A stretch of DNA of 63,108 nt, filler included, from Blastocystis sp. subtype 4 (lineage: Eukaryota): the NCBI RefSeq assembly GCF_000743755.1. It is 23 parts of 23 records of this genome, joined end to end, with 100 filler letters (N's around TTAATTAATTAA, not from the genome) between each part and the next. Parts side by side here need not be neighbours in the genome. Positions count along the whole stretch, not along the records: positions 55,950 to 58,290 come from NW_014568863.1; 22 more parts are not named here. One strand, given 5' to 3'. Positions 6,361-60,709 of this stretch are shown one piece after another. The position numbers and the translations under genes were made by a program. The notes beneath the pieces were generated by a model. The model was not told the origin of the DNA, searched no databases, and saw only the letters and a list, made by a program, of their open reading frames with translations. The stretch's first letter is position 1. Each line of letters opens with the position of its first letter.

Positions 6361-7112
6361 NNNNNNNNNNNNNNNNNNNNNNNNNNNNNNNNNNNNNNNN
6401 NNNNTTAATTAATTAANNNNNNNNNNNNNNNNNNNNNNNNNNNNNNNNNNNNNNNNNNNNATGATTTCTTATCTATATCAATGACTGCATGAGATTCACC
6501 AGCTGGTATAACAGCACTTATCACTAATTGACTCAATGGTAGACTATTGTTCATTTACTAACAACTCCTTTCGAATGTTTCATCTTCAACAGTATTCAAG
6601 TATCTGACTTGAGGATCATCAGTAATCATTGTAGTAATCAGATTGTTGTTCTGATTGACATTCTTAAGATCAGATGTTCGTACAGTTTAAGAATAGACTT
6701 GTATCACTTGTCTCTTTCTAGTGATATCAATGATGTTTGTTTCTATTACCTCCTTGTTCATATACTGTTAGATCCAGAATATCGATGAAATCAAGTACTT
6801 GGAATAATCAAATGAACAATTGGAATCAATGTGAATACAACCATAACTGGAAGCTGTACTGGGTATTGAGAGTAATATGAATTGCATTTGATTGAACATA
6901 GAAATCATGTGAGATAGAGAATAATATCGTTTATCAAACACAACAGATTCTCCTTTACCGTTAGATACAGTATTGGTTTGATCAATGTTGGAGAGAGCAG
7001 GAGTTGCTTGCAACTGCTCAAGTGATGCCGAATATAATGTTAGTAATACTGTGATGATTGTAATGAATGGATTGAATCGATAAGGATTGTCCTAAGTGAA
7101 TGACCTATATGT

Positions 7113-7400
7113 TGGTTTGCCTTGAATGATTATTGAGTAGTGCATTTACTATAATGACACAATTCTTGTTCTTGCTAGCGAGCCCTACGGGGCTAGTTTG
7201 ACCTTAGGTCAGACTGTCGGCAAATTGATTTGAAATGGTTAGCTGAGGTTTCCATTTTGATGACAATAGTCCATTTGAATTGGTCAGTTCTTACCAACAT
7301 TTTTGACTCTTTGTAGTTCGTAGGGTTAGTTACCCATATTTTGATGATTCTTCCTCAATCTTTTTTACGTAACATATGTCTATTACCTACTGCTTTGCTT
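7113..7400 (+). repeat. Diverged dispersed repeat family, copy A (others at 13550-13761, 36231-36636 and 58983-59198)
   Basis: Shared blocks CTTGAATGATTATTGAGTAGTGCATTTA at the start and ACGTAACATAYGTC..TTACCTACT at the end. Confidence 0.65.
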
Positions 7401-8949: not shown

Positions 8950-9049
8950 NNNNNNNNNNNNNNNNNNNNNNNNNNNNNNNNNNNNNNNNNNNNTTAATTA
9001 ATTAANNNNNNNNNNNNNNNNNNNNNNNNNNNNNNNNNNNNNNNNNNNN

Positions 9050-10953
9050 ATCCTCTAGCAGCCTGAGACCAACCTGATGTATCATCACCAAACCAATTGG
9101 TAGGCACTTCACCCATCTTATAATACCATTGTTCTGAATGATTGATGATAGGACGACGAACATAATGATGATGAACATTATTCTGATCAGTATCATATCG
9201 ACCTTTCACAACGATCTCCCGTTCACCATCAGGCAACATAGCATACATGTAATAATATGAACCAGATGACCAATAGGTAGATGTGGAATAGAATGAAACA
9301 TCAAATCGCTCGACAGTGATACAGAGATACGTTTCCCAATCTGTATCAGCAGTATGAGAATGACCAGATTGAACCTCAAAAAGAATGTCATCATTGGAGG
9401 AATCACGAATAGTGAAATACTCATTCTGAGGATTGGTCTTGTAAGTTCGAACAATCTTGTAAAATGTCCCAACACACTCATTAAAGGTAATACTAATAGT
9501 AGTTTGAAGTTGGCTTGTTCCTATTGTTGCTTCAATCTGATAAGAAATAGGAGAAGAAGCAACAGTTGCTGTTCCAGAAATGATACAAGTATCTGGATCA
9601 AGTGTCAGACCATCAGGAAGTTGTGGAGAGATAGAACAACCAGTATAACCAAACATAGTGGGAACGATGTTGATTACATCATAGTCCTTGTAGAACGAAT
9701 ATTGGCTTTGAGGATAGGATATACTCGTTGAAACAGCCCGATTACAGACAAGGAATTGAAGCTCATGCACATAAATAGCTCCTTCGTGAGATGTTTGAGT
9801 ATTGAATCGAATCAGAGGGTACTTGGGAAGTGTACTCACTAAATCCCATTGAGCCCATGTACTTGATTCATAAACTTGTCCAGAAATGAGTATAATAGTA
9901 TTCCAATCAGATATTTGTCGGCTGCGTATAAGGCCATAAACGAAAAGAGTTGATATAAGGAATAGATCCAGATATCTCGAAAGTGAGTGAACCAGGAGGA
10001 GAAGAGATATAGGCTCCAGTATTTCTCGAAAACGCTACAGCATAATTCGGATTCTCAAATCCAGTTGATGTAGCTGTGACTTCATTTGGAACAACGAAAC
10101 AATTGTTTGAAGAACTCAAACCAGCCATGAGTGAGATGAATCCATCAAACTGAATAAACACAGAGGTTGAAAGATCCACAGGATGGACTTCAACAGCCAG
10201 AATACTTGACACAGTCACCTCATTAGCATTGCGAATGATTCCATGATAGTCATAGAATGCATAGCTTCCTGTAGCCACAGTACTACTCGTTGGTTCACCA
10301 TCAGGCATGTTGTCTCGATACACTTCAGCACCATTAATGTAAGCCACAACACCAAATCGATAGTTCAGTTGCAACTCAAAAGCGGCCATATTGTCAACTC
10401 CAGTGAACTGTCTACGGAAGTATTGAACTCCTTGTCCAACTACTGCTTCTCCACCTGCCATATAGTCAGTCCAAGTACTATCATCAAAGCTGTACTCTTT
10501 CCAGTTTCCAGAGAGGTTATTAGTGTATTTCCAAGGTTCATTCTTGTTGATAGGAGAATACAAAGACAAAGGTTCTGTCTGAGTTCTTCCTTCAGTCATC
10601 ATTGTCTTGTACATCACATTTCCATTAATACTCTCGAATTTGATCCAAGCACCATCAGCCCATGAATCACCATAACTATCGAGCATTTCTAGAGTATACT
10701 GATGGTTTGTGGAAGCTGACAAGCACACTTCAATCTCTCTTTCATCACTATCCGTGAATGATGGAGAAGTATAAACGACTGTTGAACCAGAATAAATCCT
10801 GAATGACTCTTCACTTGAAAAGGATCTAGTCTTTTTGGTTATCTTTGTATAAACTTGGCTGGAAGAACAATCAAGAGAAGAAGCAATTATTGCTATGAGT
10901 GATGTAACTAATATGCAAATACAAAGAATGGTTAATAACAAAACCCAATCCAT
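9050..10953 (-). CDS. Secreted/surface protein of the expanded family (beta-sandwich plus putative Ig repeat); frameshift or deletion near 9907; 3'-truncated
   Basis: Signal-like N-terminus (MDWVLLLTILCICILV), family motif VAYINGAEVYRDNMPDG and Ig-like LPDGLTLDPDTCIISGT. The frame switches at about 9905 to DWNTIILISGQ. Confidence 0.75.
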
Positions 10954-11186
10954 TTGGAAAAGAAACAGTTGTATAACTGTTAAGATTACTAGTGTTTCGA
11001 ATTCTATTAGAATGAACGAACAGTAATCATATAATAAAAGCAGACTTGTGTTTCCGCACTGGAGTTGTGTTCTATTAGAAGAATTCGCAACTGTGTTTCT
11101 CTAACTCAATTTGTTTCTTCTTTATTTAGTCGGAATAATAAACTCAAAGTTGAGCTAAATTTCTAGAAAAAAAAAGAGAAGAGATT

Positions 11187-15819: not shown

Positions 15820-17642
15820 ATGAAGCCTGGAACCATTTCATTCATTACTAGAATTATGATATGTGTTAGTAAATATTCAATACTGATTCTTGTTATGTTC
15901 TGTTTCTTTCGATTGCAATTACAGGTTCTTACTAACAGAAACTGTGATTCATATTCATATTCTATCTCTATATTGTATCTAAGAATAGTGGGAACAACAA
16001 TGAGGGTTTTCAATGAGTTTGGTTACTCTTCTTCTCATACTGAACATGATTACTCAAATGATTATGATTTCAATTCAACTGTAATTGATGGTGAGTATTC
16101 GTCTTTGTCTCCAAATGGTTTCTTTCCTACTGTTTCTTCTTCTGAGTTTCTAAATGGGAATTCAACATCAGATACAGTTTCTGATTCTTCTATCTTTCTT
16201 GATTCATTGAATTCGAGTTTTGAAAGAGTCATTCCTACAGTATCTTCTATTTCAACAATGAAACCGACTTTAGATTCATCTAATCATTCTATTGAATCAT
16301 CTATGATTTCATTCGTTAATAATATGACTTCTATTATGACTCCCATTTCTACTTCTACTTCTACTTCTACTCTTGAACCTATCAGATCTACTCTCGAACT
16401 TATTCTCAATCCTATCAGATCTACTCCTAAGCCTATCGATTCTATCAATTCTTCTATCAATTCCATCAATCTTATTCCCAAACCAAATACACTTCATTCA
16501 TCATCAACTACAACAATTCATTCTTCAAAACGAAATTCTACAGTATCACATTCTTCATTCAAACGATCTCGAATCAGAACATACTACAATTGGGGTGATC
16601 ATATTAGTTAGTATTCAATGTTCTCTTGATTTCTAGATTATAATCAGAAGTGTAAGATTATTCTTAAGAGAATCACTAATCCAAACAACTACAAGATCTT
16701 ACATAATGGATCTCCTGGAGGACTGGGTCACAAGTACTTGTCTGTCTTCTATGCACTTACCTATGCTATTCTGGCTAAACGTCATTTGTTAAGTAGAATT
16801 GATTGATTAAATTGATTCTAGTTTATCTTCCTCCGAACTTCTGGATCAATACTGCTAATTGTATCACAGCTGATCAATCATTTTTGATCACTAACGTGTC
16901 CAATCTGTCCACTGGATATAGGATCGTCACAAGGCAGAAATGTTACTCATCAACAGTACACTCAATTACCCAAGTATTAGGAAATAACGATGTAGTGACT
17001 ATTGATTGTCGAATCTCAGATAAGATTATTGGTTCTAATTCAAATATTCACACATTACAACAAAATGGAATCATTTCATACTTCGAATCATATAAGGATT
17101 ATACACGATACATGTATCGAATTCTTCTCAATCCATCAATTGAACTTCAAAGAGTCATTCATCATAACAAACGAGTATTATTCACTCGAAAGTATGTTAT
17201 TGGAGTTCAAATTCGAATGGGAGGATGTTTGGCTGATTTCCATGAGATGACAATGAGTCAATTGAGAGCTCTTCCTCATACAATCGTGACAATGATGCGA
17301 AATTGGAACTACAATTCAAACAACACAGTGATCTATCTGTCTACTGATTCTTCTTATGCTGAGAGGTATATTCGACAGAAATTGGGCCCAGAATATGAAA
17401 TTGGAGTATCGAAGACATTCAAACGATCCCATTCTCGAAGTTTGGGTAATGATGAACCAGTGAAGAATGCTCTTGTTGATTTGTATCTGTTAGCAGATAC
17501 AGATGGCTTGATAGTATGTGAAGGAAGTGGATTTGGTCGAGTTGCTTTATCAATAACCCGAGCTCAACATACTTTGGTGTATAATGTTACTCATTCCATT
17601 ATTCCAAATTTAAAGGTTAGTTGTAAGAGAAATGTCATTTAG
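15820..17642 (+). CDS. Fucosyltransferase-like glycosyltransferase with Ser/Thr-rich stem (multi-exon; start uncertain)
   Basis: GGLGHK, IGVQIRMG, IYLSTDS and ALVDLYLL..D..I...SGFG match motifs I-III of the alpha2/alpha6-fucosyltransferase superfamily. Confidence 0.7.
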
Positions 17643-23543: not shown

Positions 23544-25879
23544 TTGATGAGAGTGAATGAGAATTGAGAATAATGAAGATTGGATAGAGGAATAATGACT
23601 AGAATGGAGATTGTGAATTGAGTTGATCCAACTTGATTGGATACTTGAATGGTGATGTTTGTGAGAGGAATAGAAGATAGAGGCGTTCCAGATATGATTC
23701 CTGTTGATGAATGGAATGATAGACCAATAGGAAGAGATCCAGATATAATGGAGAATGACAGATCATCTCCATTGACTATAGGAGAGATAGAGAATGGACT
23801 GTCCTTTGATAGAGCATATGAAGATTGAGAATAAGAGAATGAAGTGATAGGAGTGAGAACAATGAATGAAAGAGAAAATGATTGATCACTCACTTGATTG
23901 AATGCTTTGATAGTGACTGATTGAGATGATACTGATTGAGAAGGAGTTCCTGATATCATTCCAGTTGTTGAATTGATAGATAGACCAATAGGAAGAGATC
24001 CTGAGATGATTGAGAATGATAGATTATCTCCATTGACTGTAGGAATGATTGAAACAGGATCATCTCTTGATAGAACATAAGATGATTGAGAATAAGAGAA
24101 TGAAGATATAGGAGTGATAACAGTGAATGAAAGAACAACAGTTTCAATTGCTGTTCCACTCATTGCTTCGATTGTGACTGATTGAGAAGAGAGTAATTGA
24201 GAAGGAGATCCAGAGATGACTCCAGTTGATGGATTGATAGATAGACCAATAGGAAGTGATCCTGAGACAATGGAGATAGTAGAGACTTTGGTGAGATTGG
24301 GAGTGATAGAGAAGGATAATCCTTGACCAAGAGTGAGATTGGTTTGAGGATATGAGATGAGATGAATGATATCAATAGAAATAGGACGAGCGACTATGAA
24401 TGAACCAGATACAGCAGTGATAGTGTAAAGAGATGAATAGGAGGAGAGATATCCAGAGATAGAACAAGAAGAAGGATTAAGAATGAGTCCTTGAGGAAGA
24501 GGAGGAGTGATCATACAATTCGTTATACCATTCATATCAATTGTTAATGAAAATGAATCATTAATGAAGAATGAATAGGAGGATTGAGGAAGAAGAGTAG
24601 CGTCTCGATTACAGGTCATGAATTGAAGTTCATGGATTGAGGCAAATTCAGTTGATTGAACAGAATTGACAGTGAACTTGATTGATTTGAATTGTGAAGG
24701 AGAATTCAATGACCATTGTTTCCATGAGTATCGATTATAAGTCTGACCAGATTGAGTAGTCCAAGAAGAATCAGAATCGCTTCCTGATACAATGAATGAA
24801 GATGGAGACTCACTTGGAGCACTACCAGTATATAATCGAATAGAATTGATAAGAGGAATGATAGTTCCAAATGAACCAATCACATATCTAGGAAGAGAAG
24901 AACGACGAATGAATGTAACATAATTCCACTGGTAATCAAATGCTCCTGAGAGATCATTCAATGTTCCAGAAGCAGAGATAGAATGAGGATAAACAGAACA
25001 AGGATTATCAGTAGAAATGCCAGATTGATAAGAAATGAAAGAATTGAAATCGATAGTTCTTTCATTAACAGAAGTGAAATGAAGTTCAACAGAGATAACA
25101 GATTGATTGAATTGAGCATAGAAAGCAGGAAGAATGATTCCTCGATAAGAAGAATAAGAATATGAATTAGTAGCGAGAGTGGAATTATCAATAGTCCCAT
25201 CAGGCATATTGTCTCTGAATACTTCAATTCCATTGATATAAGCAATGATACCATGAGAATAGTAGAATTGAATATCGATAGAAGCCATTCCAGTGATTCC
25301 ATTGAATGATTTCCTGAAGTACTGAGTATTGTATGAAGTGATAGAAGAAGATCCGAGAATGATTGATATCCATTGATTATCATTGAATGAATTGGTATTC
25401 CAGAGAGAATGATAACTATCACTGTATCTCCAATTACCATTCTTATTGATAGGAGAATACAGAGCAAATAGATAACTCTCTTCACTTACACCACAACTCA
25501 TGATGTTCTTGAAGATAGTATTATCATTGATATCATTCATTGAGATCCATCCACCTCCATCCCATCCCCTACTATTTGAATCTTTCATGATAAGAGTGTA
25601 GATATGATTAGAAGAAGCATTCAAACAGACTTCATACACATATTCTTGATGTTGTTTACTGCATCGAGGAGAAGTGAATAGAGTAGATGATCCAGAAACA
25701 ATCTCAAATGACTCTCCAAAAGGATAATAACCACCACTCTTCATAGTGATCTTAACATAATGTTGATTAGATGAACATTGAATAGAGTAAGAAAGGATAA
25801 CTAGAAATGAGAGTAGAATGAAGAATGAAACAGAATGTGAAGAATAGAATGAGATGATTGATACTACAATCAACAACAA
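23544..25879 (-). CDS. Surface protein with tandem putative-Ig (He_PIG-like) repeats; 3'-truncated
   Basis: AYINGIEVFRDNMPDG domain plus repeats of FSIISGSLPIGLSINxxTGxISGTP. Confidence 0.8.
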
Positions 25880-28628: not shown

Positions 28629-31097
28629 AGATTTGTCGACTTCATCCACTGTTGACAATTCATATACTGATTTGAAGTACTATGTTGTGACTCTTCCAGG
28701 CAAACAAATGCAGACTTCAACAGTAACGAGTCCAGTGACATTCCTTCAATCTGGAATCAACACGATTGCTATTGCCATTGTTGCTATTGATGATACTCAA
28801 CTCACATCCTATTTCGATGCAGTTGTTCGTTTGATGGCATCAGAACAATCTGAATCTCATATCTGGGAATTCACTGTTACAACTACTGATATCGATAATA
28901 TGCAGGAGGGAGACATGTTGAATGATCTCTCAGCTTCTAGCTGTACCAATACCAATTCTCTCACCATCACATTGAATAATGATCGTCATGAATGGATCAG
29001 TTCTGTTCAGATTCAGAACTATTACACTAGATATGAATGGACAACTGAATTCAATCTGTATGGTCGTAACTCAGATACAGATGAATGGACACTTCTGAAG
29101 GAAGTCACTGGTCTCACTTATTCAACTCTTAGTCAGAAGAGAATCTACTTCCCTAACAATACTCCTTACAATCAATTCAAGTTTGAGAACTTTACTACTG
29201 ATGATCCTTCTGCTTGTTGGGGAGTTGCATCTCTGGATCTGTTTGCTGATAATGTGATGGCTGATATTCCTAACTTCACTTATGATTCTTCAGTCACTGT
29301 AGTCAAGTATGCAGAGATGGCTGAAGTGATTCCTCAGAATGGAGATCGTTACATGAACTTCAGAATCAATCCTTCTCTTCCTGCTGGTATTGTGTTGGAT
29401 CCTCACACTGGTTGGATCTCAGGTACTGCCACTGCTGGGAATGGTACTCAAACCTACACCATCACTGCTACTAAGATGACTGGAGGAGATGTGACTGATA
29501 CTATCTCTCTCTCAGTTTCAATATGTACTGGAGGCAAGGGATTGATGACTGTTCGTATCTACGCTGATGTCTATCCCAATGATTATTCATGGAAGCTGTA
29601 TGAAGGAAGAGGAACCACAGGAGCTGTTCTTCAATCTGTATCTCCATTCCCTGTATCTTATTCTTATTACTATGTTGATTTCTGTTTGGATGATGGAATC
29701 TACACATTTGAAGGATCTAAATCATATGGAGATGGTTGGGATTACTGGTATAGTTACACTCTGACTGTTGATTATGGAGAGATGGAGTTGGATATACAAG
29801 GACTGGACAGTTCAGATACAACACCGTCTACTGTGACTGTATCAACAGTGTTCTCAACATATTTCCCATTCCAGATTGAATACACAGATTGGAAGGTGAT
29901 ACAGAGTGATGTGTCAAGTGATTGGAATACTGTCAGTTTCGATGATTCCACTTGGAACACATACAAGGCTGTTGATATTCCTTCCACTTCTTCAATCACA
30001 ACATATATCCGAAAGAGTTTCACAATGAGTGGATTGAATGATTATCAAGTGTTGAATGTTCGAGTGAAGTATTCTGGAGGAGTGGCTGCCTATCTGAATG
30101 GAAATCTGGTTGCTCGATTCAATCTTGAAAAGGATTTCGATTCTTTGAGTCTATCAATCACTGATCATGATGCTAGTGTGTTCTCGAAGTTCCATGTGAT
30201 TCTGTCAACAGCTGGAATTGAGGAAGGCAGTAATGTATTCAGTTTCGAGATTCATCGTCATTTGAGTGGTTCTTCTTCTGATCCTGTTGTGTTTGATGCT
30301 ACTGGAGTATTTGGAGTTGAAGACTGTTCTACTGTTGTTGATTCTTATTCTTCTCTCACTTCTACTGAACTGGAATATGGTACTCTTGATGAAATCATGG
30401 ATCTGGATTCTTACACTTATGGTGTACTACCCAATATGATTGGAACCTATATTGACTGGACTGTTGAGAATCTGGAAGGAAGCAAATGGAACTCATTCAA
30501 CATTGTTGGAAGATTCACTGTTTCTTCTTGGGGCTTTGATATCTATGGTTATTCCAATCCTGATGATGAACAGGAATCAGTGACGATTCTGAATGCTGTG
30601 AATCAGACCGTGACTATCCTAACAAAGCCTCAGATTGCTGTTCCTGTGGCTCTGACTGGATTCCGAAGATATCGATGGCAAATCACCAAGGATACCTCAG
30701 AGTACCTCGATGTTAATTCAATTCATATGGCCTATTGCAAGGATCCCAGACACAATGATCCTAACTGGACACCTGTTCCAACACCAACTCCAATTCCAAC
30801 TTCGACTCTAATTCCCACTAATGCTCCCACAACAGTGTTGCCAACATTTGTTCCCACACTACCTCCAGTTCCTACTTCGATTGTTACTCCTTCTTCTGCT
30901 CCGACAACAGATGAGTGTGGAGATGGGTTCATGAAGATTATATTCACAAGAGTATCAGGTGAAGAGGAATGTGAGGTGAGAGTGAGTGATGCTTCAAGCA
31001 AGACAAATGGTTTGATTCTAATCAATTCACTCAGTTCATCTTCAATCTACTGTCTCAATCCTGGTTACTATTACATTGGTTGTAAAGGAGCTGGTAT
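28629..31097 (+). CDS. Large surface protein of the expanded family (internal fragment) with Pro/Thr-rich linker
   Basis: 838-aa open frame with LPAGIVLDPHTGWISGT, LNVRVKYSGGVAAYLNGNLVARFNL and PTPTPIPT linker. Confidence 0.85.
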
Positions 31098-31990: not shown

Positions 31991-32138
31991 GTCTCCAATT
32001 GACTCAGTTCAGTAATATCATGAACTTGGATACATAATCGACATTAAGTACAGTGAATGTTGAAGAGAATCCTTGATTACAGTAATATTCTAAGGAATCA
32101 TTACTAGGTTATCAACAAACAATCTCCTGTTTCTACTA

Positions 32139-33613
32139 TTAAACTTTCACCTGTTTCGCAGAAACCTTCTTTGTTGTTGTCTTGCTCGACTTTGATGACT
32201 TCTTTCCCTTCACGCCACCTACTGCCTTCGCCTTCTTTCCAGTTCTCATAAGGAAGAGAACAACAATAGCAACAATCACAATCACAATAATAACCCCAAT
32301 AACCAACAATGGAACGGACATACAGAATCCGGAAGCCTTCTGCCATTCTCCATCTTCACTTCCCAACACACAAGCACGCTTCTGAGTACCCACATAACTG
32401 CCCTGAGTAGCACAATCATACTCAGCCACTGTACCCACATCGGTTACAGGGAATACACCTTCTGCAACACACTGACCCTTTCGCACTTGAATTGATACTG
32501 TTGCTCTTGTGGCTCCTGATTCATTCTCAGCATACACAGTGTACGTTGTCAAATCCATAGTATCTGTGGGAATTCCAGAGATCTCACCAGTCTGGGCATT
32601 CAGACTCAACCCAGCAGGAAGAACTACTCCAGTATCGATATACCAACGTTGAACAATGTTTCTCACTGAGGGAACACCAGTGGTTACTTGTGTTCCCATC
32701 ACAAATCGATTCATTGAGGAAATATAACGGGCATTCGTTGGTGGTCTCATGGAACAATGATCTGTCTTGACTTCACCCAACACACCTCCAGAACACTCAC
32801 GATATGAATATCCACTATAACCAGTCTCACAAGAAGAAGGAGAGATTTGACCTTCAGCCACTGAAGGATAGTTGCCAATTCCAGGACACACAGCTCCTGA
32901 AGCCTTGCAATATGCCATATGAACAGAACCCAAAGTCGTTCCTGTAGTGCCAGTCACAGTAACCTCCCATCGATATCTACGGAATCCAGCCAGAGCCACA
33001 GGAACAGCAATCTGAGGCTTTGTTCGCTGAGTCACAGTCTGATCAATAGCACTCAAAATTGTTACTCGCTGACTAGCAGATTCATCAGGATCGTAAGTAG
33101 CAATGATATCAAATCCCCAAGAAGTGACTGTGGATCCTCCAACCATATTGAATGAATTCCATTTGCTTCCAATCAGATTCTCAACAGTCCATTCAATATA
33201 GGTTCCAATCGTGTTTGGAAGGAATCCAGTAGTGTAAGGATCAAGATCCATGATATCAGCAAGAGTACCTGAAGTGGGAGTAGTAGAAGTGAGTGAAGAA
33301 TAAGAATCAACAACAGTAGAACAGTCTTCAACTCCAAATACTCCAGTAGCATCAAACACAACAGGATCAGAAGAAGTACCACTCAAAGGACGATGAATCT
33401 CGAAACTGAATACATTGTTACCCTCCTGAATTCCAGCTGTTGCCAGAATCACATGGAACTTCGAGAACACATTAGCATCATGATCAGTGATCGATAGACT
33501 CAAAGAATCGAAACCCTCTTCAAGATTGAATCGAGCAACCAGATTTCCATTCAGATAGGCAGCCACTCCTCCAGAATACTTCACTCGAACATTCAACACT
33601 TGGTAATCATTCA
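32139..33613 (-). CDS. Surface-protein family C-terminal part with Cys-rich modules, TM helix and basic tail
   Basis: Family domain shared with 28629-31097; TM LLVIGVIIVIVIVAIVVLFLM; tail KKAKAVGGVKGKK...QVKV*. Confidence 0.88.
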
Positions 33614-36230: not shown

Positions 36231-36636
36231 GGTTTACCTTGAATGATTATTGAATAATGCATTTATTGCTAGAAAGAATTAACGACAACATTCTTGTTCT
36301 TCACTTTGTTAGTCAAAATGTATGATTCATAATTTGTGATACATTGTTAGTCCTATGTCATATTATGTGTCTGACCATTATTGATAATAAATGTAAAACT
36401 TTTGTGCTTCATTGTTGCCCATGATTTGACTTGAAATGGGTTGGATATGTTTCCAAATTATTATCAAAATGTCTGCATTTTCGAGCTTGTTTATGGGCCT
36501 TTTTGTCTGCATTTTCGTGGCGTTTTTGTCTGGTAGGGTTAACCCTGTATAGCTACCCAGGGTTGGAGGCCTATGCTTGCGACGGTTTGTCTGGATGAAA
36601 AAATACGTAACATACGTCAATTACCTACTACTTTCT
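36231..36636 (+). repeat. Dispersed repeat family, copy C, directly upstream of the hAT transposase
   Basis: Contains all three conserved blocks, plus palindrome AGGGTTAACCCT around 36535-36546. Confidence 0.65.
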
Positions 36637-36659: not shown

Positions 36660-38615
36660 ACATGTATGTGACTGTATGCTATGTTCAATTCCAGGTTTCA
36701 TATGTAAGAAACTGATTACTGCGGATAAGAAGAAATGCATCAACCATATCAAAAGTCATTTCTCGAACGATTATTCCATTTACTCAGTAATAATAAAGGA
36801 TGTAACATTGTGGAATGGAGTTAATAGTAGATTGTTAGTACCTACAACACAAAGATGATGAATAATATTATTGATGTAGTTTTTTGGCATGATACGAGTA
36901 TAATTGTGATTCGTTCACAACCTCTAGAGTCATAAGGAGGAAGGAACAATGGATCACTACGTGAAACGAACTGATACAAGCAATGATGATTTGGTGTTAT
37001 TTGCTTCAAATGCTAATTTGTCGCTATCTCTGTTGGATTCTCCTTGGTGGAATATTCATGGAATCTTGTGCGCCGGGATTTCGTAGAGTCAGTTCAACGA
37101 CATTATGTAATAAGCTGCTACCTCGTACTGCAAAGAAGGTGATGGATTTTGTTGTGAATCAACTAATGGGTTGTAAAGTGACTCTAGTTGTTGATGAGAT
37201 GAGGAAGAATCATTGTTCTTTTTATAATTTCGTGCTAGCAGCAGATAGTGATATTGATATGAGAGGGGTGAACGTTTTCTTTTGGGACAGTATTAGTATG
37301 GAAACAGGAACATCTAGTGATGTTGGGAAGGCAATAGCTGATCAAGTGAATGCGTTAACTAAACTGGGTCTTGATGTTGTGGCTTATGCAACAGACAACT
37401 GTAGTGTCATGCGAGGAACCGAGGATTTTGTGAAAGCTCATTGTGGAAGGAGTATACCTCGTATTCCTTGTGTATCACATTATCTGAATGGAATACTCAA
37501 GAAGATGTTGAAACAGGAGCCTCTAAAGACTCTTTGGAATAATGTCCGTGATGGCTATCTCTCTCATTATTAGGTGCGTGAAGCAAATGCCTGTGTATTA
37601 TCCTCCAAGGTTCTCTACAACAGAATGATGGAATTCCAACAAATCTCACCGTTTGAGCCAATTCCTTAGATCCTTGAGTGGTCCTGGTATTATGAAAATA
37701 GGATATTTCTTGGAGTGTTTGGTTATCTATAGGTAATCTTGATGAAGGACCAATCGTTCAGTATGTTCGTGAATCACTCTACGAAAGGAATGAAATGGAG
37801 CACATATGGATTGATGATATGAGTATGGATAATGATATCAAAGGCAGTACTCTCCCTAATGACTCAGGGGATGACTCAGATGACTCCAGCGATAAAGTGA
37901 TACTAACGATAGTTGTATTGCTGTTCCTGATCTTTCGATTCCTAAGAGAAAGAGGAATAGGCGATATAAACTCCTATCATACTGTGAAACGCGGTGGTAT
38001 AGTGCTGTATTGGTTATGAGAAGATTCTATTCACTGTATGAGTCGATGAAATTCTTGTATGATGATATGGAACAGAATCCTACTGCCTATAGCAAACAAA
38101 AGAAGAATGAATTCATAGCTTCAATGGGAAAGATTGATAAAAGAGAGCTTCTGAGAGCAGTATATTATCTTCAACCATTGGTTCAAGGAATTGCTATTTG
38201 TCAAGCTGATACTACTCTTCAGATGAATGTAATTCCTCTGTTGAGAAGTATTCGAGACTATTATTTGAGTCATGCTCAAGAAGGAGATGAATTATTCTTT
38301 CTGAATCAAAAGGATATGGGTCTATTGTTTATTGATGACAAGGGGTTATTCAAAAGGACTCCGAAGCATCTTTATAGTCTATTCTATGATAATCTCAATT
38401 TAAAGGTTGATATGAAGACAACATTGGATCCTGAAACCCAAAAGTTCATCTATTTAGTGAAGAAAGACATTCGGAAGTTATTAACTGCGAAGAATCCGCT
38501 CGTCTCCATAAATGAAATCAATCGTCTCTGTAATATAGCAGATAAGGACATTCTCACTTATCTGGGAGATACTGACTCGCGTATTGGTATCTCTGTTAAT
38601 CAGTACTTTATCTTC
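36660..38615 (+). mobile_element. hAT-superfamily transposase with spliceosomal introns; frameshift near 37050; 3'-truncated
   Basis: Putative BED-like finger (C..C...HIKSH), PGFRRVSSTTL, VTLVVDE (first catalytic D), AYATDNCSVM (second D), CVSHYLN (CxxH) and CETRWYS. 30-nt intron at 37544-37573. Confidence 0.8.
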
Positions 38616-38907: not shown

Positions 38908-41120
38908 TTACGATGAATGAGAAGGAGTTGGATTATCATAAACTGTGAACATGTTAGGAGGATTATCAACTGGAACAGATGATTTGTTGGTTTGAGGAGT
39001 ATGATTTGAGTTGGTTTGATATGAGATTGGAAGCTTCCGAGACCGATGCTTCCGATACAAATGTATATGAGACTTCTTTCGAATGATAAGAATGAGAATG
39101 AGAATGAGAATGATAAGAATAGAAAGAGAGATGAGAATGATAGTGAGAGTGGATAGAGCATTGACAGTAAAGGATAGTTGAGTTTGAATGAATCCGAGTT
39201 GATTGGAAGCCTGAATAGTGATAGATGTAGATGGGAATGTAGATGAAGGAATACCAGAAATGATTCCAGTTGATTGATTGAGAGATAGACCAGGAGGAAG
39301 AGTTCCTGAAGTGATTGTGAATACAGGATTGTCTCCTGAAATGATTGGAGAGACTGAGAATGATTGTCCTTTGATGAGAGTGAATGAGAATTGAGAATAA
39401 TGAAGATTGGATAGAGGAATAATGACTAGAATGGAGATTGTGAATTGAGTTGATCCGACTTGATTAGATGCTTGAATGGTGATGTTTGTGAGAGGAATGG
39501 AAGATAGAGGAGTTCCAGATATGATTCCTGTTGATGAATTGATAGATAGACCAACAGGAAGAGATCCAGAGATAATGGAGAATGATAGATCATCTCCTTC
39601 ACAGGTGGGAGTTGTACTGAAATAGGTGTTGTTTTGAATGATGAAGATGGTTTGATTGTAGTTGAGAGATGAAGGAATGAGTTGAATAGTGAATGAAAGA
39701 GAGAATGATTGATCACTCACTTCATTGAATGTTTTGATTGTGACTGATTGAGATGATACTGATTGAGAAGGAGTTCCTGATATCATTCCAGTTGATGGAT
39801 TGATAGATAGACCAATAGGAAGCGATCCTGATGCGAGGGAGAAAAAAGGACAGGACTGGTCCCTTGTACAGTTGGTAAAACTGAATAATCTTCTCCTAGA
39901 ACAAGGATGTAAGAAGTCCGAGGATAAGAGAATGAAGAAACAGGAATTAGAACAGAAAAAGAAAGAGTGAATGATTGATCACTCACTTCATTTGAGGCCT
40001 TGATTGTGACCAACTGTGATATAACAAACTGAGAAGGAGTTCCTGATATCATTCCAGTTGTTGAATTGATATATAGACCAATGGGAAGAGATCCTGATGT
40101 GATAGAGAATGATAGTTGATCTCTATTGACTGTAGGAGTGATAGAAAATGATTCATCTATTAAAACAGTAAATGAAGTTTGAGAATAGCTAAGTGAAGTA
40201 ATAGAAGTGATGATGGTAATAGAAAGAGAGAATGATTGATCACTCACTTGATTTGAGGCCTTGATTGTGATGGATTGAGATACGACTAATTGAGAAGGGA
40301 TTCCTAATATCACTCCAGTTGATTCATTGAGTGTCAAACCTGTAGGAAGTGATCCTGAAGTGATAGAGAATGATAATTTATCTCCATCAACAGCAGGAGT
40401 CACAGAGAATGACTGATCTTTTGCGAGAACATAAGCAGCATAAGGATAGGAGAATGAAGAAATGGAAGTGAGTACTGTAAATATGAGTGTAACAGAAAGA
40501 TCACTCACTTCATTGAATGCTTTGATTGTGACTGAATGAGATATCACAAATAGAGAAGGAAACCCTGAGATGACTCCAGTTGATGGGCTTAGAGATAATC
40601 CAATAGGAAGTGATCCTGATGTAATCGAGAAAGACAAGTCATCACCAGTGATTGAAGGAGTAGCCGAAAAAGGACGATTCTTTGACAGAATGTAAGTTGA
40701 TTGAGGATATGAGAACACTGAGATGGATTGAAGAATGGTAAATGAAAGGATGAATGATTTATCATTGACATCATTCGATGCTTTGATAGTAACTGATTGC
40801 GATATAATGACTAGAGATGGAATTCCAGATACCATTCCAGTTAAAGGATTAAGAGATAATCCAATAGGAAGAGATCCTGATATGATAGAGAAAAAAGGAT
40901 CACTTCCAATGACAGTGGGAAAAACAGAGAATGATTCACCAGCTGATAGGATATAGGATGATTGAGGATAAGATAATGAAGAGATAGGAGTGATAACAGT
41001 GAATGAAAGAACAACAGTTTCAATTGCTGTTCCACTCATTGCTTCAATTGTGACTGATTGAGAAGAGAGTAATTGAGAAGGAGATCCAGAGATGACTCCA
41101 GTTGATGGATTGATAGATAG
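38908..41120 (-). CDS. Tandem putative-Ig (He_PIG-like) repeat surface protein, C-terminal part with TM helix; frameshift near 39835
   Basis: Multiple SGSLPIGLS..TG.ISG.P repeats; TM IILISLSILIILILILILII. Segments are near-identical to 23544-24250. Confidence 0.8.
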
Positions 41121-50954: not shown

Positions 50955-52385
50955 NNNNNNNNNNNNNNNNNNNNNNNNNNNNNNNNNNNNNNNNNNNNTT
51001 AATTAATTAANNNNNNNNNNNNNNNNNNNNNNNNNNNNNNNNNNNNNNNNNNNNATTCACATCTTATTCACATCCTCTATTCTCAAACATCAATCAATCC
51101 AATACCAATCCCAAATCTCAATCTATTATCTTTCATAAACCATACTATTCTCTATCTCACATTCTTATACTCAATCAAAACCAATACACATCATTCTCAA
51201 TATCCAATGCTCTTTTCCACTTATCCTTCCATTCACATTCTTCACTTCATTTCTATCAACCACTTCATATCACTCACATACCCTAATCTCACCTACTCTA
51301 ACACATCATTACCATCTAACATCCAATCCATTATCTTCCAATAACCATTTCTTCATAACCAACGATTCTCTTCACACAATCTACATATCAACATACCATC
51401 ATCTCAATCCAACCATTCAAATCCAATCAAACTCACTTTTNNNNNNNNNNNNNNNNNNNNNNNNNNNNNNNAAATCATTGCTTTATCCATTCTTCATGCT
51501 TATCCACCATAATCAACAATCATATCCACTCACTGGACTCATAACAGACTTCATCCTTATCATTTCTCAATCATCTCATTTCTAACAGACTTATCAATCA
51601 TTACAACATACCTTCTCTACTTTCATTCATTTCACTCTTCAACCACCAAGCAAACACAATATCATTGTGTTCCTTGTACTCTTCAATCAACCTCCTTTCT
51701 AACAAATTCAATCATTCATTCTCTGAATGTCGAAGCTCAATGAGAAAACAATCTATTCAACTCATAGGAACACAATTCAACAACAACCCAGAATAGACAA
51801 TCATAACGAGATTTCTCTTCTTTCTTCATATATCATTTCAATCTCACAATCACCTTACAACTCATGTCTTCCAACAAACACACTATCTCAATCAACTAAC
51901 ACATACACAACTTCCGCTTCCAATTAACCATTCAACACCAACACCATCTACATCTTATCTTCAACTCTTTATCACACTCCTTCCATTCAATTCATAAACA
52001 CTACTGCTACTCATATCAACTCAACTCAGAATTCCAATATCTACTCTCAACTCAATTCATTACTCATACTCTACAAACACAACACATCCAATATACCTCA
52101 AACAATACCAACCACTATGCATTCACACAACATCATTCACATCTAATCATCATTCTTCATTCTATTCATCACTCTTCATTCTTACACTCTTTCCATAATT
52201 CAAACCACCTCTGCTATTCCATTTACCATCATCTCCTTCAAATGCTCCTTCTAACATATACATCAATTCAAATCTTACTACATCTCATTATTATTCATTC
52301 ATTCAATCATTACTCTCAAATCAAACTCAATCACAACCACCAAATCAATACATATCTGCCAATACATATCCATTCAACTCAACGC

Positions 52386-52463
52386 AACTCTTTCAATCAT
52401 TTCTCACATTCAAACTCTTTCAATCATTTCTCACATTCAAACTCTTTCAATCATTTCTCACAT
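52386..52463 (+). repeat. 27-bp tandem repeat, about 3 copies
   Basis: Unit AACTCTTTCAATCATTTCTCACATTCA. Confidence 0.9.
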
Positions 52464-52967
52464 CACACTCATTCTCATCAATCAAATCAACATCATAACC
52501 ATAATACAACTTACAACATTCATCAACACTTACAATAGACATGCTTCTCACTTCACCAACATTCCATACATCCAATACACAATAATCACACAATCAATAT
52601 CCTACAATAATCAATTCTCTCACACATACACACTTATAATTCCATCCTTCACCATAACACATTCTGCTCCTTATCAATCACTTCATTCCAATATCAATTC
52701 AAATCAATTCATTCACTCCATTCGCTATCAACTCAATTCCTCAACCAAAACACTCATCTCCAATAATCACCCATTTCAGATCACACAATCCACACACATT
52801 CAATCATACAACACTTCAATCCAATTCACAATAATCCTCAAACCTCACATCCTCAACTCATAATCCAATTCAACTCACATCAATCACTTCACCTCTTGCT
52901 TTCACATCAATCACTTCTCCATCATATCAACTCACCAACACTACTCAATCAACAATACAATCATCAA

Positions 52968-53405
52968 CTATTCACTTCAACACTCTCACTCTATTCCAAC
53001 TCATTACAACTACATCCTTCAATACTCACACCTCATCCAATATCTATTCTTTCATACTTACAAATCTCATACTTTCCAACCTTACAAAACCCATATTCCC
53101 AAATACATAACTACTAATGCTTAGTCTCCTCAAACATTCTACATCTCATCATTACAACTCTTAACATACATACTCATCATCATAACACTATTCTTATACT
53201 AATACCGAATTACATCAATTCTCTTTATACAACTCCAACCATACAAACACCAACTCTCTAATCCTAACACTCTCAACTTACAAACATCTCATATCTTCAA
53301 TTCCTATTATCACATACTTTCAAAAACAGTATGCTCTACCCCATCGAAACCATCTTCTCATACATCAATACTCTACAATCATCCCAACTCTACAATCCAT
53401 CTCTT
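52968..53405 (-). pseudogene. C->G hypermutated pseudogene of the BspA-like LRR family (paralog of 7667-8090)
   Basis: Four exons and three intron positions align with the gene at 7586-8949. In-frame stops include TCA->TGA and TAC->TAG. Confidence 0.85.
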
Positions 53406-55949: not shown

Positions 55950-58290
55950 TGTGTTACTGTATCAAAGATTGATAATGTGAAAACAGAATATAAAGTATTT
56001 CATGCTGAACATGAAGATGAAAGAGATTTGATACCATTCATTGATTATCTGATACATATTAAACAAGATGCTTCTGCATATCTGTTTGATGAGACAAATC
56101 TAGAATGGTCTGTTGATGTTGAAAAGGATTATGATAATACTAGTATATGTCCATTTTGTAATTGTGGTATAGGGTCCAAAGATGAAGTTAAAGAAAACAG
56201 TATTAGAATGAGTAGTTGTAGTAAGGATATCTATTTCAAAGAAGGTGAAATTGAAGAATTTCAAAGAAGGTGAAATTGAAGAATTGATGAAAACAAGAGG
56301 AGATGCAATGAATTGGTATGAAGATGAATTAGAGAAACGTCGTAATGCTGATCCATTCTATCAAAAGCAAATCCGTATGAAATTCCTTGAAACAATGGTT
56401 TTGGATGGTAGAGCAAATGATAAACAACAAAATGAGTATGAACAATTGAAGAAAGAAACACGATTAGCAGGTGTTAAAGTGAGACATCATGCTCATGTAT
56501 CAGGAGAATATAGTAATGGTGAATGTGTGCGTTATTATAAAGCAGGAGAATACATTTGTACATGTTGTGATAAATGCAATTTGCAATTATCATTTAACAA
56601 GAAGTACTACAAACTACCTGTATACTTCCATAATGGTATGCGTTATGATAATGCTTATATCATGAGACTATTAGGTAAGTATAAGGCTTTACATCCTAGT
56701 TCAATGGATAAGGAAATGATGATTGAAATGGATGGTATCCAATTCAAAGATTCATACAAAATGATTTCTGCTCCATTAAAGCGTATTGTGAGTGATACTC
56801 TTGGAAATGATTTGAACAATTATCGTTATACAAAACTATTGTTGAAACAGTATTTGGAAGATCATAACAAACCATATGATGAATCATACATAGAATTGAT
56901 GACAGTTCTATGGTTTGATTACATCTTACAAATCTCTATCAACCAGACACATTCCTAAACAAGAAGAATGTTATGATGATTTGTCTCAATCATTCATGTG
57001 TGAAGAAGACTATCAACATATGAAATTGTTGTGGAAAACATTCAATATTCGTAATTGGGGTGAATATTATGAATTATACAATCTGTTGGATGTAACATTG
57101 CTTGCAGATTGTTTTGAACATTTCAGAGACTCAACTATGAAATCATTTGGTGTTGATTCTGCTCATTATCTAACAACACCTCAAATGTCATATTCATTGT
57201 TTCTGAAGAATGTTTCGAATAAGGATGATAGTCGATATTATGATGTAGCTAAGAAATGGGCTAATTATCAAATGAAGATTGGTAAGAATGAGAATTAGTG
57301 AAGAAGAAATGATTGGTATCTTCATGGATCGTATGTCTGAGTTTAATGCATATGGTGGTATTCGTTTGCTTGGTAAGAATGATATGAATGAATTTATATC
57401 CTTAAAAGAATAACTTGCGTGGAGGATTAACACAAATATCAACTCGTTATTCACAAAATGAATGTGATGATGAATCTATGTATTATCTAGATGCAAATAA
57501 TCTGTATGGAGGTGTAATGCATAGAATGATGCCTTATAATATTGTACATATAAGTGATAAGGAGAAATCGAAGATATTGAATAGTAATCCTATAAAATGG
57601 ATAGAATCTCTTGATACATATGATAAGTATGGATATTTCATAGAATGTGATATAGAAGTGGATGATAATAAGCATGATTACTTNAATGATTTGCCACTAT
57701 TTCCTAGTCAGAAGTATGGTGTATATTCAAATCCTATGAAGAAGTTTGCAAATGATTTTGATATTGATGATTTGAATAAGAAGGAAAGTAGTAAGAAACT
57801 GATTTGTGACTTATTGAAGAAGGAACATTATGTTGTACATTATTCGATGTTACAACTTGGTATTGAACTGGGTTATAAGGTTACGAAAATCCATAATGTG
57901 ATCAAATTCAGACAAGCACCATTCATCTATGAGTATGTGAATTTGTTGTCTGAAATGCGTGCTAAGAGTAAGACAGGTGTATTGAAGAATCTGTTCAAGT
58001 TACTTGCAAATTCAATCTATGGTAAGTTTGTTGAGACTGGATTAAAGCGTATGAAGGTGAAATTTGCTACAACAAAAGAAGAACAAAACAGTATTATTGC
58101 TAAATATAGTATTGATTTACTAGATGAAGTACATTTGTATGATACGAACTTATGGGCTGCTAAGATTGCAAATCCTCAAAAGAGAATGTCAAAACCATTC
58201 TTCATTGGATTTGCTATTCTGGATATGTCAAAGTATATCATTTATGACTTCTACTACAATGTGTTAAAGCGTAATATGGAGAATGTGTGT
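55950..58290 (+). mobile_element. Protein-primed family-B DNA polymerase (Polinton/Maverick/adintovirus type), disrupted
   Basis: VRHHAHVSG..C..CNL, Exo II FHNGMRYD, Exo III YNLLDVTLLADCFEHFR, RGG, motif A YLDANNLYG..M and motif B KLLANSIYGKF. Frameshifts and stops near 56260, 56910, 57296 and 57412; intronless. Confidence 0.9.
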
Positions 58291-59280: not shown

Positions 59281-60709
59281 CTAAACCTTAACCTGCTTTC
59301 CACCAATCTTCTTCGTCACAGTATTTGATGTCCCAGACTTTGTAGATTTCTTTCTTCCCTTTACTCCACCAACAGCCTTAGCCTTCTTTCCAGTTCTCAC
59401 TAGCAAGAACACAACAACAACAACAATCACAATCACCACAACTATCACCAACACCATCGTTACAATAGGCATACACACTCCAGATGCCTTCTTCCATTCT
59501 CCATCTTCACTTCCCAACACACAGGCACGTTTCTGTGTACCCACATAACTACCCTGAGAAGAGCAGTCATATTCAGCAACTGTTCCCACTTCAGTCACAG
59601 GAAACACACCTTCAGCAATACACAGTCCTTTTCGTACCTGAATTCCAATAGTTGTTTGAGTGGCCCCAGATTGATTCTCGGCATAGATAGTGTACGTTGT
59701 CAACTCCTGAGTGACAGTAGGATTACCAGAGATCTCGCCAGTCTGGGAATTGAGAGTCAATCCAGCAGGAAGGAACACTCCAGTATCAATGTACCAACGC
59801 TCTACAATGCTTTGCACTGTTGGAATGTCAGTTTTCACCTCCGTTCCCATCACAAACATGTATTGCGATGCTTGGTAGCGAGCATTCGTTGGAACAATCT
59901 GCGTGCAATGTTCCATCTTGACTTCACCCAACACACCTCCAGAACACTCACGATATGAATAACCTCTGTAACCCTCAGGACAAGAAGAAGGAGAGATTTG
60001 ACCTTCAGCCACTGAAGGAATTCCAGGACATACATAGCCTGTAGCCTTACAATAGGCCATATGAATCGAACTCAAGGTCATTGTTGAAGAAGCAGTATCA
60101 GTAACCTCCCATCGATATCTGCGGAATCCAGCCAGAGCCACAGGAACAGAGATCTGAGGCTTTGTTCGAGAAGTGATAGTCTGATCAGAAACACTCAGAA
60201 CAGTGATTGGTTCATCTAGCTCATCATCAGGATTGGAACCAATGATATCAAAGCCCCAAGAAATAGTTTTTGATCCAGCAATGTTGAATGAGTTCCATTT
60301 GCTTCCAACCAGATTCTCAACAGTCCATTCAATATAAGTTCCAATCGTATTAGGAAGTAGACCAGTAGTGTAAGGATCAAGATCCATGATTCCAGCAAGA
60401 GTACCTGAACTGGGATCAGTTGAATCAAGAGAAGAATAAGAATCAACAACAGTAGAACAGTCTTCAACTCCAAATACTCCAGTAGCATCAAACACAACAG
60501 GATCAGAAGAAGAACCACTCAAACCACGATGAATCTCGAAACTGAATACATTATTACCTTCCTCAATTCCAGATGTTGACAGAATCACATGGAACTTCGA
60601 GAACACATTAGCATCATGATCAGTGATTGATAGACTCAAAGAATCGAAATCATCTTCAAGATTGAATCGAGCAACCAGATTTCCATTCAGATAAGCAGCC
60701 ACTCCTCCA
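59281..60709 (-). CDS. Surface-protein family C-terminal part (paralog of 32139-33613)
   Basis: Same domains, TM helix and ...KQVKV* tail. Confidence 0.88.

What the first reader, a model, noticed from the sequence alone, without database searches (positions are those of the whole stretch)
55950..58290. Endogenous Polinton/Maverick-type protein-primed DNA polymerase relic
Seen: an intronless, AT-rich contig with an endonuclease-VII-like VRHH..G..C..CN segment, Exo II/III and Pol motifs A and B. It is disrupted by a 25-bp tandem duplication (TTCAAAGAAGGTGAAATTGAAGAAT, about 56235-56284), further frameshifts and stops. Known: this architecture characterises Maverick/adintovirus pPolB. Inference: a decayed integrated virus or transposon, and evidence of DNA-virus exposure in this lineage.
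Basis: partly seen in the sequence, partly recalled or inferred. Interest (0 to 1): 0.7.

Follow-up and report, generated by a model that had tools for sequence, protein, structure and literature searches.

The report
Gut-protist virus polymerase shredded by splicing
This is a frameshifted piece of the DNA polymerase gene of a known kind of integrating virus, likely of the gut protist Blastocystis; intact copies sit at several host sites, and in one probable RNA dataset the intact gene has ten 29-35-base pieces cut out at splice signals, which would destroy the enzyme and may act as a brake on the virus.

Summary
Observation confirmed. The 2,341-bp contig (a gap on each side) is residues 610-1396 of a 1,602-aa protein-primed PolB, about 98.5% identical in DNA to intact copies. 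It has four frameshifts and two in-frame deletions, no in-frame stop and at most two private substitutions, so it is a recently broken copy or an assembly error, not an old fossil.

Intact relatives carry an rve integrase, a double-jelly-roll capsid protein and AGT-repeat ends at three different flanks. Near-identical proteins lie on Blastocystis BT1 scaffolds. The window also holds two element ends (36632, about 7394). Blastocystis MELD viruses are already published (PMC8502044).

New here: one public run (RNA by guess only) gives a contig of the intact gene lacking ten 29-35-nt GT/GC-AG stretches, the size of Blastocystis introns. They remove Exo II, Exo III, motif A and the end of motif B, eight shift the frame, and the sites are not conserved in relatives. 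They are likely cryptic introns that make the mRNA non-coding. Three other RNA runs show unspliced pieces at low depth.

Verdict: new member of a known kind, with one lead worth testing.

The parts
55950..58290 (+). Internal fragment of a protein-primed family B DNA polymerase gene (aa 610-1396 of 1602), filling the whole contig; broken into five reading pieces
   Evidence: tblastn to P0001 93-99.7% per piece; blastn 95.1-95.7% including gaps to six loci
56148..56159 (+). CxxC pair (C676/C679), first half of the predicted zinc site of the nuclease-like insert
   Evidence: invariant in 18 of 18 aligned proteins
56235..56284 (+). Exact 25-bp tandem duplication; first frameshift
   Evidence: absent from 7 of 7 loci and from the 4 runs that span it
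56479..56580 (+). HNH/endonuclease-VII-like segment VRHH...CxxCN with a family-specific loop
   Evidence: alignment to DHCH-type motifs of distant relatives; no Pfam hit here
56626..56649 (+). Exo II motif (FHNG..YD)
   Evidence: translation; motif name from established PolB knowledge
57077..57091 (+). Exo III motif (Y..LD)
   Evidence: translation; Y992 and D996 nearly invariant
57484..57510 (+). Polymerase motif A (YLDANNLYG)
   Evidence: translation
57997..58026 (+). Polymerase motif B (KLLANSIYGK)
   Evidence: translation; within the Pfam DNA_pol_B_2 hit
56471..57405 (+). Five further lesions: 3 and 27 bases missing (56471, 56695; in frame), 14 and 2 bases missing (56905, 57296) and 1 extra base (about 57400-57405); the last three shift the frame
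   Evidence: global alignment to 7 loci; tables 4
56513..58123 (+). Ten stretches skipped in run X17: 56513-56545, 56636-56666, 57076-57107, 57373-57408, 57493-57524, 57627-57655, 57791-57819, 57933-57966, 58022-58056, 58091-58123 (29-35 nt in the intact gene; 9 GTA..AG, 1 GC..AG); likely cryptic introns
   Evidence: two junctions (first and third) were placed using the intact copy's letters
36400..36632 (-). 234-bp terminus of the same element family (starts AGTAGTAG) joined at 36633 to non-element DNA; on another contig, linkage to the polymerase contig unknown
   Evidence: 93-95% identical to the left ends in L001, L005, L006
6462..7394 (-). End of a related subfamily: about 30 bp like the terminus above, then a stop- and frameshift-broken gene 47-49% like the long ORF that follows pPolB in L009-L011; host-like gene family beyond 7394

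Best explanation
The contig is a frameshifted, likely recently broken copy of the polymerase gene of an integrating Polinton-like (MELD) virus family, likely of Blastocystis, whose intact members sit at several host sites and whose polymerase RNA is likely cut into a non-coding form by host splicing at accidental 29-35-nt sites. Shown: identity of the gene, its six indels, the gene set and AGT-repeat ends of intact relatives, three different flanks, and the ten GT/GC-AG skips in one run. Inferred from the family: protein-primed replication from the ends (terminal protein, vOTU, exonuclease, polymerase), rve-mediated integration, packaging in a double-jelly-roll capsid. Inferred and untested: the skips are made by the Blastocystis spliceosome, which recognises about 30-nt introns with minimal signals; an AT-rich intronless viral ORF offers such sites by accident; leaky transcripts of latent proviruses are therefore mostly destroyed, and polymerase is made only from RNA that escapes splicing. 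Odds: identity and family 0.95; window copy a real dead allele 0.7; skips are real host splicing 0.85; this splicing limits the virus in vivo 0.45.
For: P0001 (1602 aa, cluster of 1031 members) is 93-99.7% identical per piece; 2 of the 40 members read are named, both Blastocystis sp. BT1 on a 979,865-bp scaffold; the integrase is 99% identical to a BT1 protein on a 687,578-bp scaffold. L001, L005, L006 start with the same AGTAGTAGT end after three unrelated flanks; the L005 and L006 flanks match host-like window contigs at 68-83%. Integrase rve E 5.8e-11. The conserved 425-aa ORF folds (pLDDT 89.5) as a double jelly-roll: Sputnik MCP E 1e-13; Z 20.6 (rmsd 4.1, 318 aligned) to a PBCV-1 capsid chain, 17.4 (4.6, 352) to mavirus MCP. 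The polymerase model (pLDDT 85) matches phi29 first in PDB and 'MELD virus sp.' PolB (63% identity), then adintovirus and bidnavirus PolB, in BFVD. Tree: window copy groups with intact copies and the BT1 protein (100), end branch 0.0017. Of 24 substitutions against all five closest loci, 15 recur in L007, 4 lie beside indels, 5 are silent, 3 of those recur in run X3. X17: 10 skips, all with GT/GC..AG ends on the sense strand, 29-35 nt; chance about 3e-21 for random placement; 9 of 9 GT donors are GTA though only 23 of 57 GT candidates are; 8 of 10 shift the frame, first stop at codon 821 of 1602; 0 of 3 other runs laid (two DNA by guess, one of unknown kind) show a skip; skipped codons are conserved in relatives while the signals are kept at only 1-2 of 10 sites in 7 distant loci. 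Blastocystis ST1/3/4 introns are almost all 30 bp (PMC10690189, passage); two 30-31-nt host introns are visible at 55065 and 55158.
Against: Splicing rests on 1 of 4 RNA-type runs; its RNA status is a guess and only contigs, not reads, were available. X18, X19 and X20 (RNA on record) give short unspliced contigs (depth 2.6-6.6) across sites 1, 3, 4 and 6; DNA carry-over cannot be told from unspliced RNA. The contig itself has no flank. None of the six indels was seen in 7 loci or in any of the 7 runs where they cover the place, and 6 indels in 2.3 kb contrasts with 9 in about 57 kb among near-identical copies, so assembly error is possible; the contig holds a lone N (57684). Host identity was inferred from intron size and named relatives, not from a host marker gene. 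A codon test for avoidance of splice donors gave no host-virus difference once controlled. Full-length P0001 itself misses Pfam DNA_pol_B_2.
Confidence: 0.7

Rival explanations
1. The six indels are assembly or library artefacts in a collapsed multicopy repeat; the genome holds only intact or other copies.
For: Indels private to this contig; almost no private substitutions and none that changes a residue; lone N; all six within 1.2 kb; X17 shares the contig's 5' alleles (56049-56160) without any of the indels.
Against: Deletions of 14 and 27 bases and a 25-bp duplication are not typical base-calling errors (own knowledge); a divergent real copy is what would assemble apart from collapsed copies (inference); L002 also has a frameshifting 8-base deletion in pPolB; the window holds another broken element end.
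Confidence: 0.25
2. The splicing is harmless noise on read-through transcripts; enough unspliced RNA remains, so it does not limit the virus.
For: Sites are unconserved; unspliced contigs in three RNA runs; the family is evidently successful, with 1031 cluster members and polymorphic insertions; 14 of 23 GTA candidates were not used.
Against: In X17 one 3,082-nt contig carries all ten skips, so the spliced form is the assembled form at every one of these sites, and any one of eight breaks the frame.
Confidence: 0.35
3. The element is helper-dependent like mavirus: its productive transcripts are made outside the nucleus by a giant virus, so its genes were never purged of splice sites.
For: Mavirus proviruses in another stramenopile are silent until CroV infection, AT-rich and intronless (PMC8547959, passages); same gene kit (pPolB, rve, MCP, ATPase, protease); dense cryptic sites (11.7 candidates/kb in this pPolB against 3.1/kb in 13 host ORFs).
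Against: The density gap follows base composition and is weak in the other viral ORFs (5.4/kb) and in L008 pPolB (4.7/kb); the controlled codon test was negative; a gut giant-virus survey found no gene-flux link between egoviruses and Blastocystis (10.1101/2024.03.23.586382, passages); polymerase is adintovirus-like, not shown mavirus-like.
Confidence: 0.15
4. The X17 contig is DNA: a retro-copied (processed) pseudogene or a chimeric assembly.
For: RNA status only guessed by the tool; RNA not shown.
Against: A retrocopy would itself need prior splicing; random deletions with ten GT/GC-AG ends have a chance of about 3e-21; the DNA-type runs and all loci lack the skips.
Confidence: 0.07
5. The contig is a co-sequenced free virus, linear plasmid or contaminant rather than an integrated copy.
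For: No flank on the contig; lowest GC of the 23 segments.
Against: A free replicon with four polymerase frameshifts could not replicate alone; relatives encode integrase and capsid; a terminus of the same family is joined to non-element DNA in this window; near-identical genes lie on BT1 scaffolds.
Confidence: 0.04

Closest known systems
Blastocystis MELD virus / 'MELD virus sp.' PolB (Starrett et al. 2021, PMC8502044; BFVD A0A8S5L5J7)
   Same: Alpha-adintovirus-like PolB plus integrase plus divergent virion genes in Blastocystis datasets (section 3.4 read); best structural hit, 63% identity.
   Different: This subfamily is only about 63% identical in PolB; the passages read do not mention insertion polymorphism, broken copies or splicing. 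Whether the BFVD entry is the paper's Blastocystis virus was not checked.
Polintons/Mavericks and Alpha adintoviruses of animals
   Same: pPolB with vOTU-like Cys/His and nuclease-like insert, rve integrase, double-jelly-roll MCP, ATPase and protease motifs, (AGT)n end, intronless DNA ORFs.
   Different: Protist host; PolB 18-19% identical to adintovirus models; MCP has no Pfam hit; TIR pair and 6-bp TSD not shown here.
Mavirus-like endogenous virophages (EMALEs) of Cafeteria (PMC8547959)
   Same: Stramenopile host, about 20 kb, AT-rich, intronless, pPolB plus rve, strain-specific insertions.
   Different: No helper virus known or tested; MCP fold no closer to mavirus than to other double-jelly-roll proteins.
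Nuclear barrier of yeast cytoplasmic virus-like elements (Kast et al. 2015, PMC4431711, abstract)
   Same: AT-rich genes of a linear element are destroyed by host nuclear RNA processing.
   Different: There the cut is internal polyadenylation of plasmid immunity genes moved to the nucleus; here it would be splicing of about 30-nt cryptic introns from an integrated virus's polymerase.
Punuivirus latency genes with spliceosomal introns (10.64898/2026.10.09.758095, abstract)
   Same: Host spliceosome acts on transcripts of an integrated DNA virus of a protist.
   Different: There introns are part of working genes; here splicing removes catalytic motifs and breaks the frame.

Membership tests
Polinton/Maverick-type integrating virus | Protein-primed family B polymerase | tested here: met
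   Pfam DNA_pol_B_2 above cut-off; model matches phi29 polymerase first in PDB, MELD/adintovirus PolB first in BFVD
Polinton/Maverick-type integrating virus | Retrovirus-like (rve) integrase | tested here: met
   In intact relative L006, E 5.8e-11, above cut-off; not in the window contig
Polinton/Maverick-type integrating virus | Double-jelly-roll major capsid protein | tested here: met
   L006 425-aa ORF; Foldseek and VIA-align hits to Sputnik, PBCV-1, mavirus, PRD1 capsids
Polinton/Maverick-type integrating virus | A32/FtsK-like packaging ATPase | tested here: inconclusive
   Walker A variant, Walker B and RH motifs in L008 and L011, Pox_A32 only sub-threshold; the closest loci hold just its C-terminal end
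Polinton/Maverick-type integrating virus | Adenain-like maturation protease | tested here: inconclusive
   His, Asp, Gln, Cys motif pattern recalled for adenains is visible in L006 17436-17963; no Pfam hit
Polinton/Maverick-type integrating virus | Penton (minor capsid protein) | not tested
   No candidate was folded
Polinton/Maverick-type integrating virus | (AGT)2 end motif | tested here: met
   L001, L005, L006 and window 36632; motif as given in PMC8097293
Polinton/Maverick-type integrating virus | Terminal inverted repeats | tested here: inconclusive
   Only left ends held; no TIR pair within 6 loci scanned; window 36400-36632 matches for 234 bp then diverges, as an opposite end would
Polinton/Maverick-type integrating virus | 6-bp target site duplication | not testable with these tools
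   No locus held both ends
Adintoviridae (proposed) | Animal host | tested here: not met
   Named near-identical proteins are Blastocystis; window genes have 30-nt introns
Adintoviridae (proposed) | Alpha-type PolB with N-terminal OTU domain | tested here: inconclusive
   Conserved Cys374 and invariant His504 in the expected motifs; region not folded; outside the window contig
Adintoviridae (proposed) | Virion proteins recognisably adintovirus-like | not tested
   PMC8502044 reports them as not recognisably similar for the Blastocystis virus; no named hit among 85 MCP homologues
Cytoplasmic or mitochondrial linear plasmid | No capsid and no integrase genes | tested here: not met
   Both present in intact relatives
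Virophage (mavirus-like) | Dependence on a giant helper virus | not testable with these tools
   Needs infection experiments
Conserved spliceosomal introns of the gene | Splicing restores or keeps the reading frame and sites are conserved | tested here: not met
   8 of 10 break the frame; signals kept at 1-2 of 10 sites in 7 distant loci and 6 of 10 in L007, against 0-1 of 8-11 and 7 of 11 for unused sites

The most novel reading that the evidence does not exclude
Blastocystis's spliceosome, tuned to about 30-nt introns, works as a built-in antiviral barrier: it cuts the catalytic motifs out of the polymerase mRNA of an intact, still-spreading integrated virus, so the virus replicates only when it escapes or shuts off splicing (for example by a viral inhibitor or a helper virus).
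Probability: 0.35. Interest if true: 0.8.

Novelty: new member of a known kind. Interest (0 to 1): 0.5.

Why it matters
The broken fragment alone is ordinary. It points to an intact, polymorphically inserted virus family in the commonest eukaryote of the human gut, where such viruses have been noted only briefly. If the splicing lead holds, it shows a simple way in which an intron-dense, tiny-intron genome disarms foreign AT-rich genes. It also makes two open questions testable in a culturable host: where and how Polinton-type viruses express their genes, and what keeps them latent. It further warns that RNA-guided gene models of these elements in Blastocystis will show false introns.

Tried and rejected
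1. Splice-donor avoidance. Host ORFs seemed to avoid making GTA across codons while viral ORFs did not. The control showed general T-before-A avoidance in both (odds ratios 0.20-0.24 host, 0.14-0.28 L006). Rejected as evidence.
2. Microhomology-mediated repair as the cause of the deletions: overlaps were 0, 2, 0 and 0 bases. Not supported.
3. Old neutral decay: no private amino-acid change away from indels. Rejected.
4. Gaps in two B. hominis gene models (P0022, P0023; 3-4 gaps of 6-13 residues against L012) look like annotated introns, one near site 1, but may be prediction artefacts. Not counted.
5. Viral-contig scan: 0 confirmed loci. Sequence search of solved structures with alignment A1: 0 hits. 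ESM Atlas on aa 150-600: unnamed, mostly eukaryotic clusters at 0.91-0.93, no family assigned.
6. No whole genome is held for the window, and right ends of the elements were not available, so TIR pairs, TSDs, copy number and splicing outside this contig stay open.
7. Tree is FastTree on 40 rows with unnamed outgroups and long-branch warnings; used only for near placement. Five rows of the unfinished first run were dropped (L005, L013, P0032, P0203, P0214, P0218 minus none added beyond these; 40 of 46 inputs kept).
8. Three look-ups of earlier scan findings returned nothing.
9. X20's 40-base match at the duplication is an unrelated sequence; ignored.

Full report
Context. The window is a string of mostly 2.3-2.5-kb contigs joined by 100-nt N/linker gaps; the finding fills one of them, 55950-58290, so neighbours in the window are not genomic neighbours. 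Other contigs carry eukaryotic genes (V-ATPase A, eRF1, PPP5, AFG1, mitochondrial carrier, eight He_PIG ORFs; 18 of 42 ORFs hit Pfam) and 30-31-nt GT-AG introns. With the named relatives below this points to Blastocystis, probably ST4-like (inference; no host marker gene was tested). No whole genome is held.

Observation. One of six pieces hits DNA_pol_B_2 above cut-off. A search for longer homologues gave 55 proteins, led by P0001, 1,602 aa and 100% identical over the 202-aa query. The contig is aa 610-1396 of it. Exo I and motif C lie outside. There are four frameshifts, two in-frame deletions and no in-frame stop on the path.

How broken, how old. Against six near-identical loci the contig has 30-38 substitutions. 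Of 24 that differ from all five closest loci, 15 recur in the 90%-identical L007, 4 flank indels and 5 are silent; three of those five recur in run X3. So at most two substitutions are private and both are silent, while six indels are private. Near-identical copies differ from L006 by 9 indels in about 57 kb, one a frameshift well inside pPolB (L002). The copy is therefore either very recently hit by indels or mis-assembled; I put 0.7 on a real dead allele.

The intact family. A metagenome scan gave 16 loci. L001, L004, L005 and L006 hold a whole 1,602-codon ORF. L001, L005 and L006 begin with the same AGTAGTAGT end after three unrelated flanks, which include an ABC-transporter ORF and MORN/LRR-like ORFs related to host-like contigs of the window. 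The element encodes an rve integrase, a 425-aa protein with 85 homologues that folds as a double jelly-roll, a protease-like ORF by motif and, in L008 and L011, an ATPase by motif. The N-terminal half of pPolB keeps a Cys and His in vOTU-like motifs, the domain described in 10.1101/2024.03.18.585575 (abstract and section 8 read). Proteins 98-99% identical to the polymerase and integrase lie on two Blastocystis BT1 scaffolds; BT1 is ST4 (PMC10690189, passages). The window itself has a 234-bp end of this family joined to non-element DNA at 36632 and the broken end of a sister subfamily at about 7394. Integration of the family is thus well supported; integration of this copy is not directly shown.

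Placement. The AlphaFold model of the intact C-terminal 1,013 aa (pLDDT 85) matches phi29 polymerase best in PDB and 'MELD virus sp.' PolB (63% identity), then adintovirus and bidnavirus PolBs, in BFVD. A FastTree of 40 rows puts the contig with the intact copies and the BT1 protein, inside a clade that also holds two B. hominis proteins. Starrett et al. [quoted passage not shown] A second preprint uses 'Blastocystis MELD virus 3996' in a tree (10.1101/2022.05.25.493380, one passage). Bellas et al. screened ten Blastocystis assemblies (PMC10120064, supplement rows only; the file was cut, so their result could not be seen).

The unexpected part. Twenty of 24 listed runs hold the stretch or part of it, from 11 studies, several labelled mouse or rat gut. 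X3, X5 and X9 carry the uninterrupted gene. X17 (RNA by guess, depth 18) has one 3,082-nt contig with intact-type letters at all six lesions but ten skipped stretches. In intact-gene terms they are 29-35 nt, nine GTA..AG and one GC..AG on the sense strand; chance about 3e-21. Only GTA donors are used among GT candidates (9 of 23 GTA; 0 of 34 others). They delete Exo II, Exo III, motif A and the end of motif B; eight break the frame and the fully spliced form stops at codon 821. The codons are conserved in relatives but the splice signals are not, so these are cryptic, not true, introns. Against this: X18, X19 and X20, RNA on record, show short unspliced contigs over sites 1, 3, 4 and 6 at depth 2.6-6.6. 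These may be DNA carry-over or real unspliced RNA. A test for evolved avoidance of splice donors failed its control.

Mechanism. From established knowledge of Polintons and tectivirus-like replication, the intact element would copy itself by protein priming at its ends, integrate by rve and package in icosahedral particles; none of this was tested. The window copy cannot make polymerase. For intact copies I commit to this reading: nuclear transcripts meet a spliceosome that accepts almost any GTA..AG of about 30 nt, so most are made non-coding, and the virus depends on RNA that escapes splicing. Rivals are harmless noise (0.35) and helper-virus transcription as in mavirus (0.15; PMC8547959 passages; a gut survey found no egovirus-Blastocystis link). 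The nearest precedents seen are internal polyadenylation of AT-rich yeast element genes (PMC4431711, abstract) and working introns in punuivirus latency genes (abstract).

Novelty. The element type and host are in print. I found no report of cryptic splicing of a Polinton-type gene in searches (listings), nor in passages of PMC12220804, 10.64898/2026.07.28.741278 and 10.64898/2026.10.13.758929; subscription journals and bioRxiv supplements were not searchable. Defining features of Mavericks were taken from PMC8097293 (passages). Verdict: new member of a known kind; interest 0.5, carried by a single-run lead.

Noticed in passing
window 36400-36632 (-) and 36965-37570 (+): Element end inserted next to a broken ORF with a weak DUF659 hit (E 0.0012, below cut-off), perhaps a decayed transposase; 36231-36399 matches nothing in the held loci and may be the inside of the right end.
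   Followed up: partly
window 6462-7394 (-): Broken end of a second subfamily, sharing about 30 terminal bases with the first; shows at least two element subfamilies in this assembly.
   Followed up: partly
window 8994-11100, 23546-25879, 28630-31095, 32142-33611, 38911-41117, 59284-60708: Eight long intron-poor He_PIG (Ig-like) ORFs, some with 261-bp repeats; two pairs overlap in different frames, suggesting frameshifted paralogues of a large surface-protein family.
   Followed up: no
window 51472-53405: Extreme strand skew (GC skew to -0.88) with short CT-rich tandem repeats; low-complexity or subtelomere-like DNA.
   Followed up: no
window 16803-17639 (+): Intronless ORF with a sub-threshold NodZ fucosyltransferase hit (E 8e-6); candidate bacterial-type gene.
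   Followed up: no
L006 vs L008/L011/L012: Subfamilies share pPolB, integrase, MCP, protease and ATPase but differ in order (an inverted block right of MCP), GC (0.32-0.49) and accessory genes; L011 carries a KilA-N gene (E 5e-10), which the egovirus preprint describes as restricted to parabasalid polintons.
   Followed up: no
L004 1-1654: Left end of the element is missing; the flank mixes a host-like match to window 32109-32268 with a short ORF that looks bacterial; possible chimeric contig.
   Followed up: no
P0001 aa 30-53: pPolB of this clade starts with a 2C_adapt-like motif (above cut-off in 4 of 14 relatives scanned), repeated in some.
   Followed up: no
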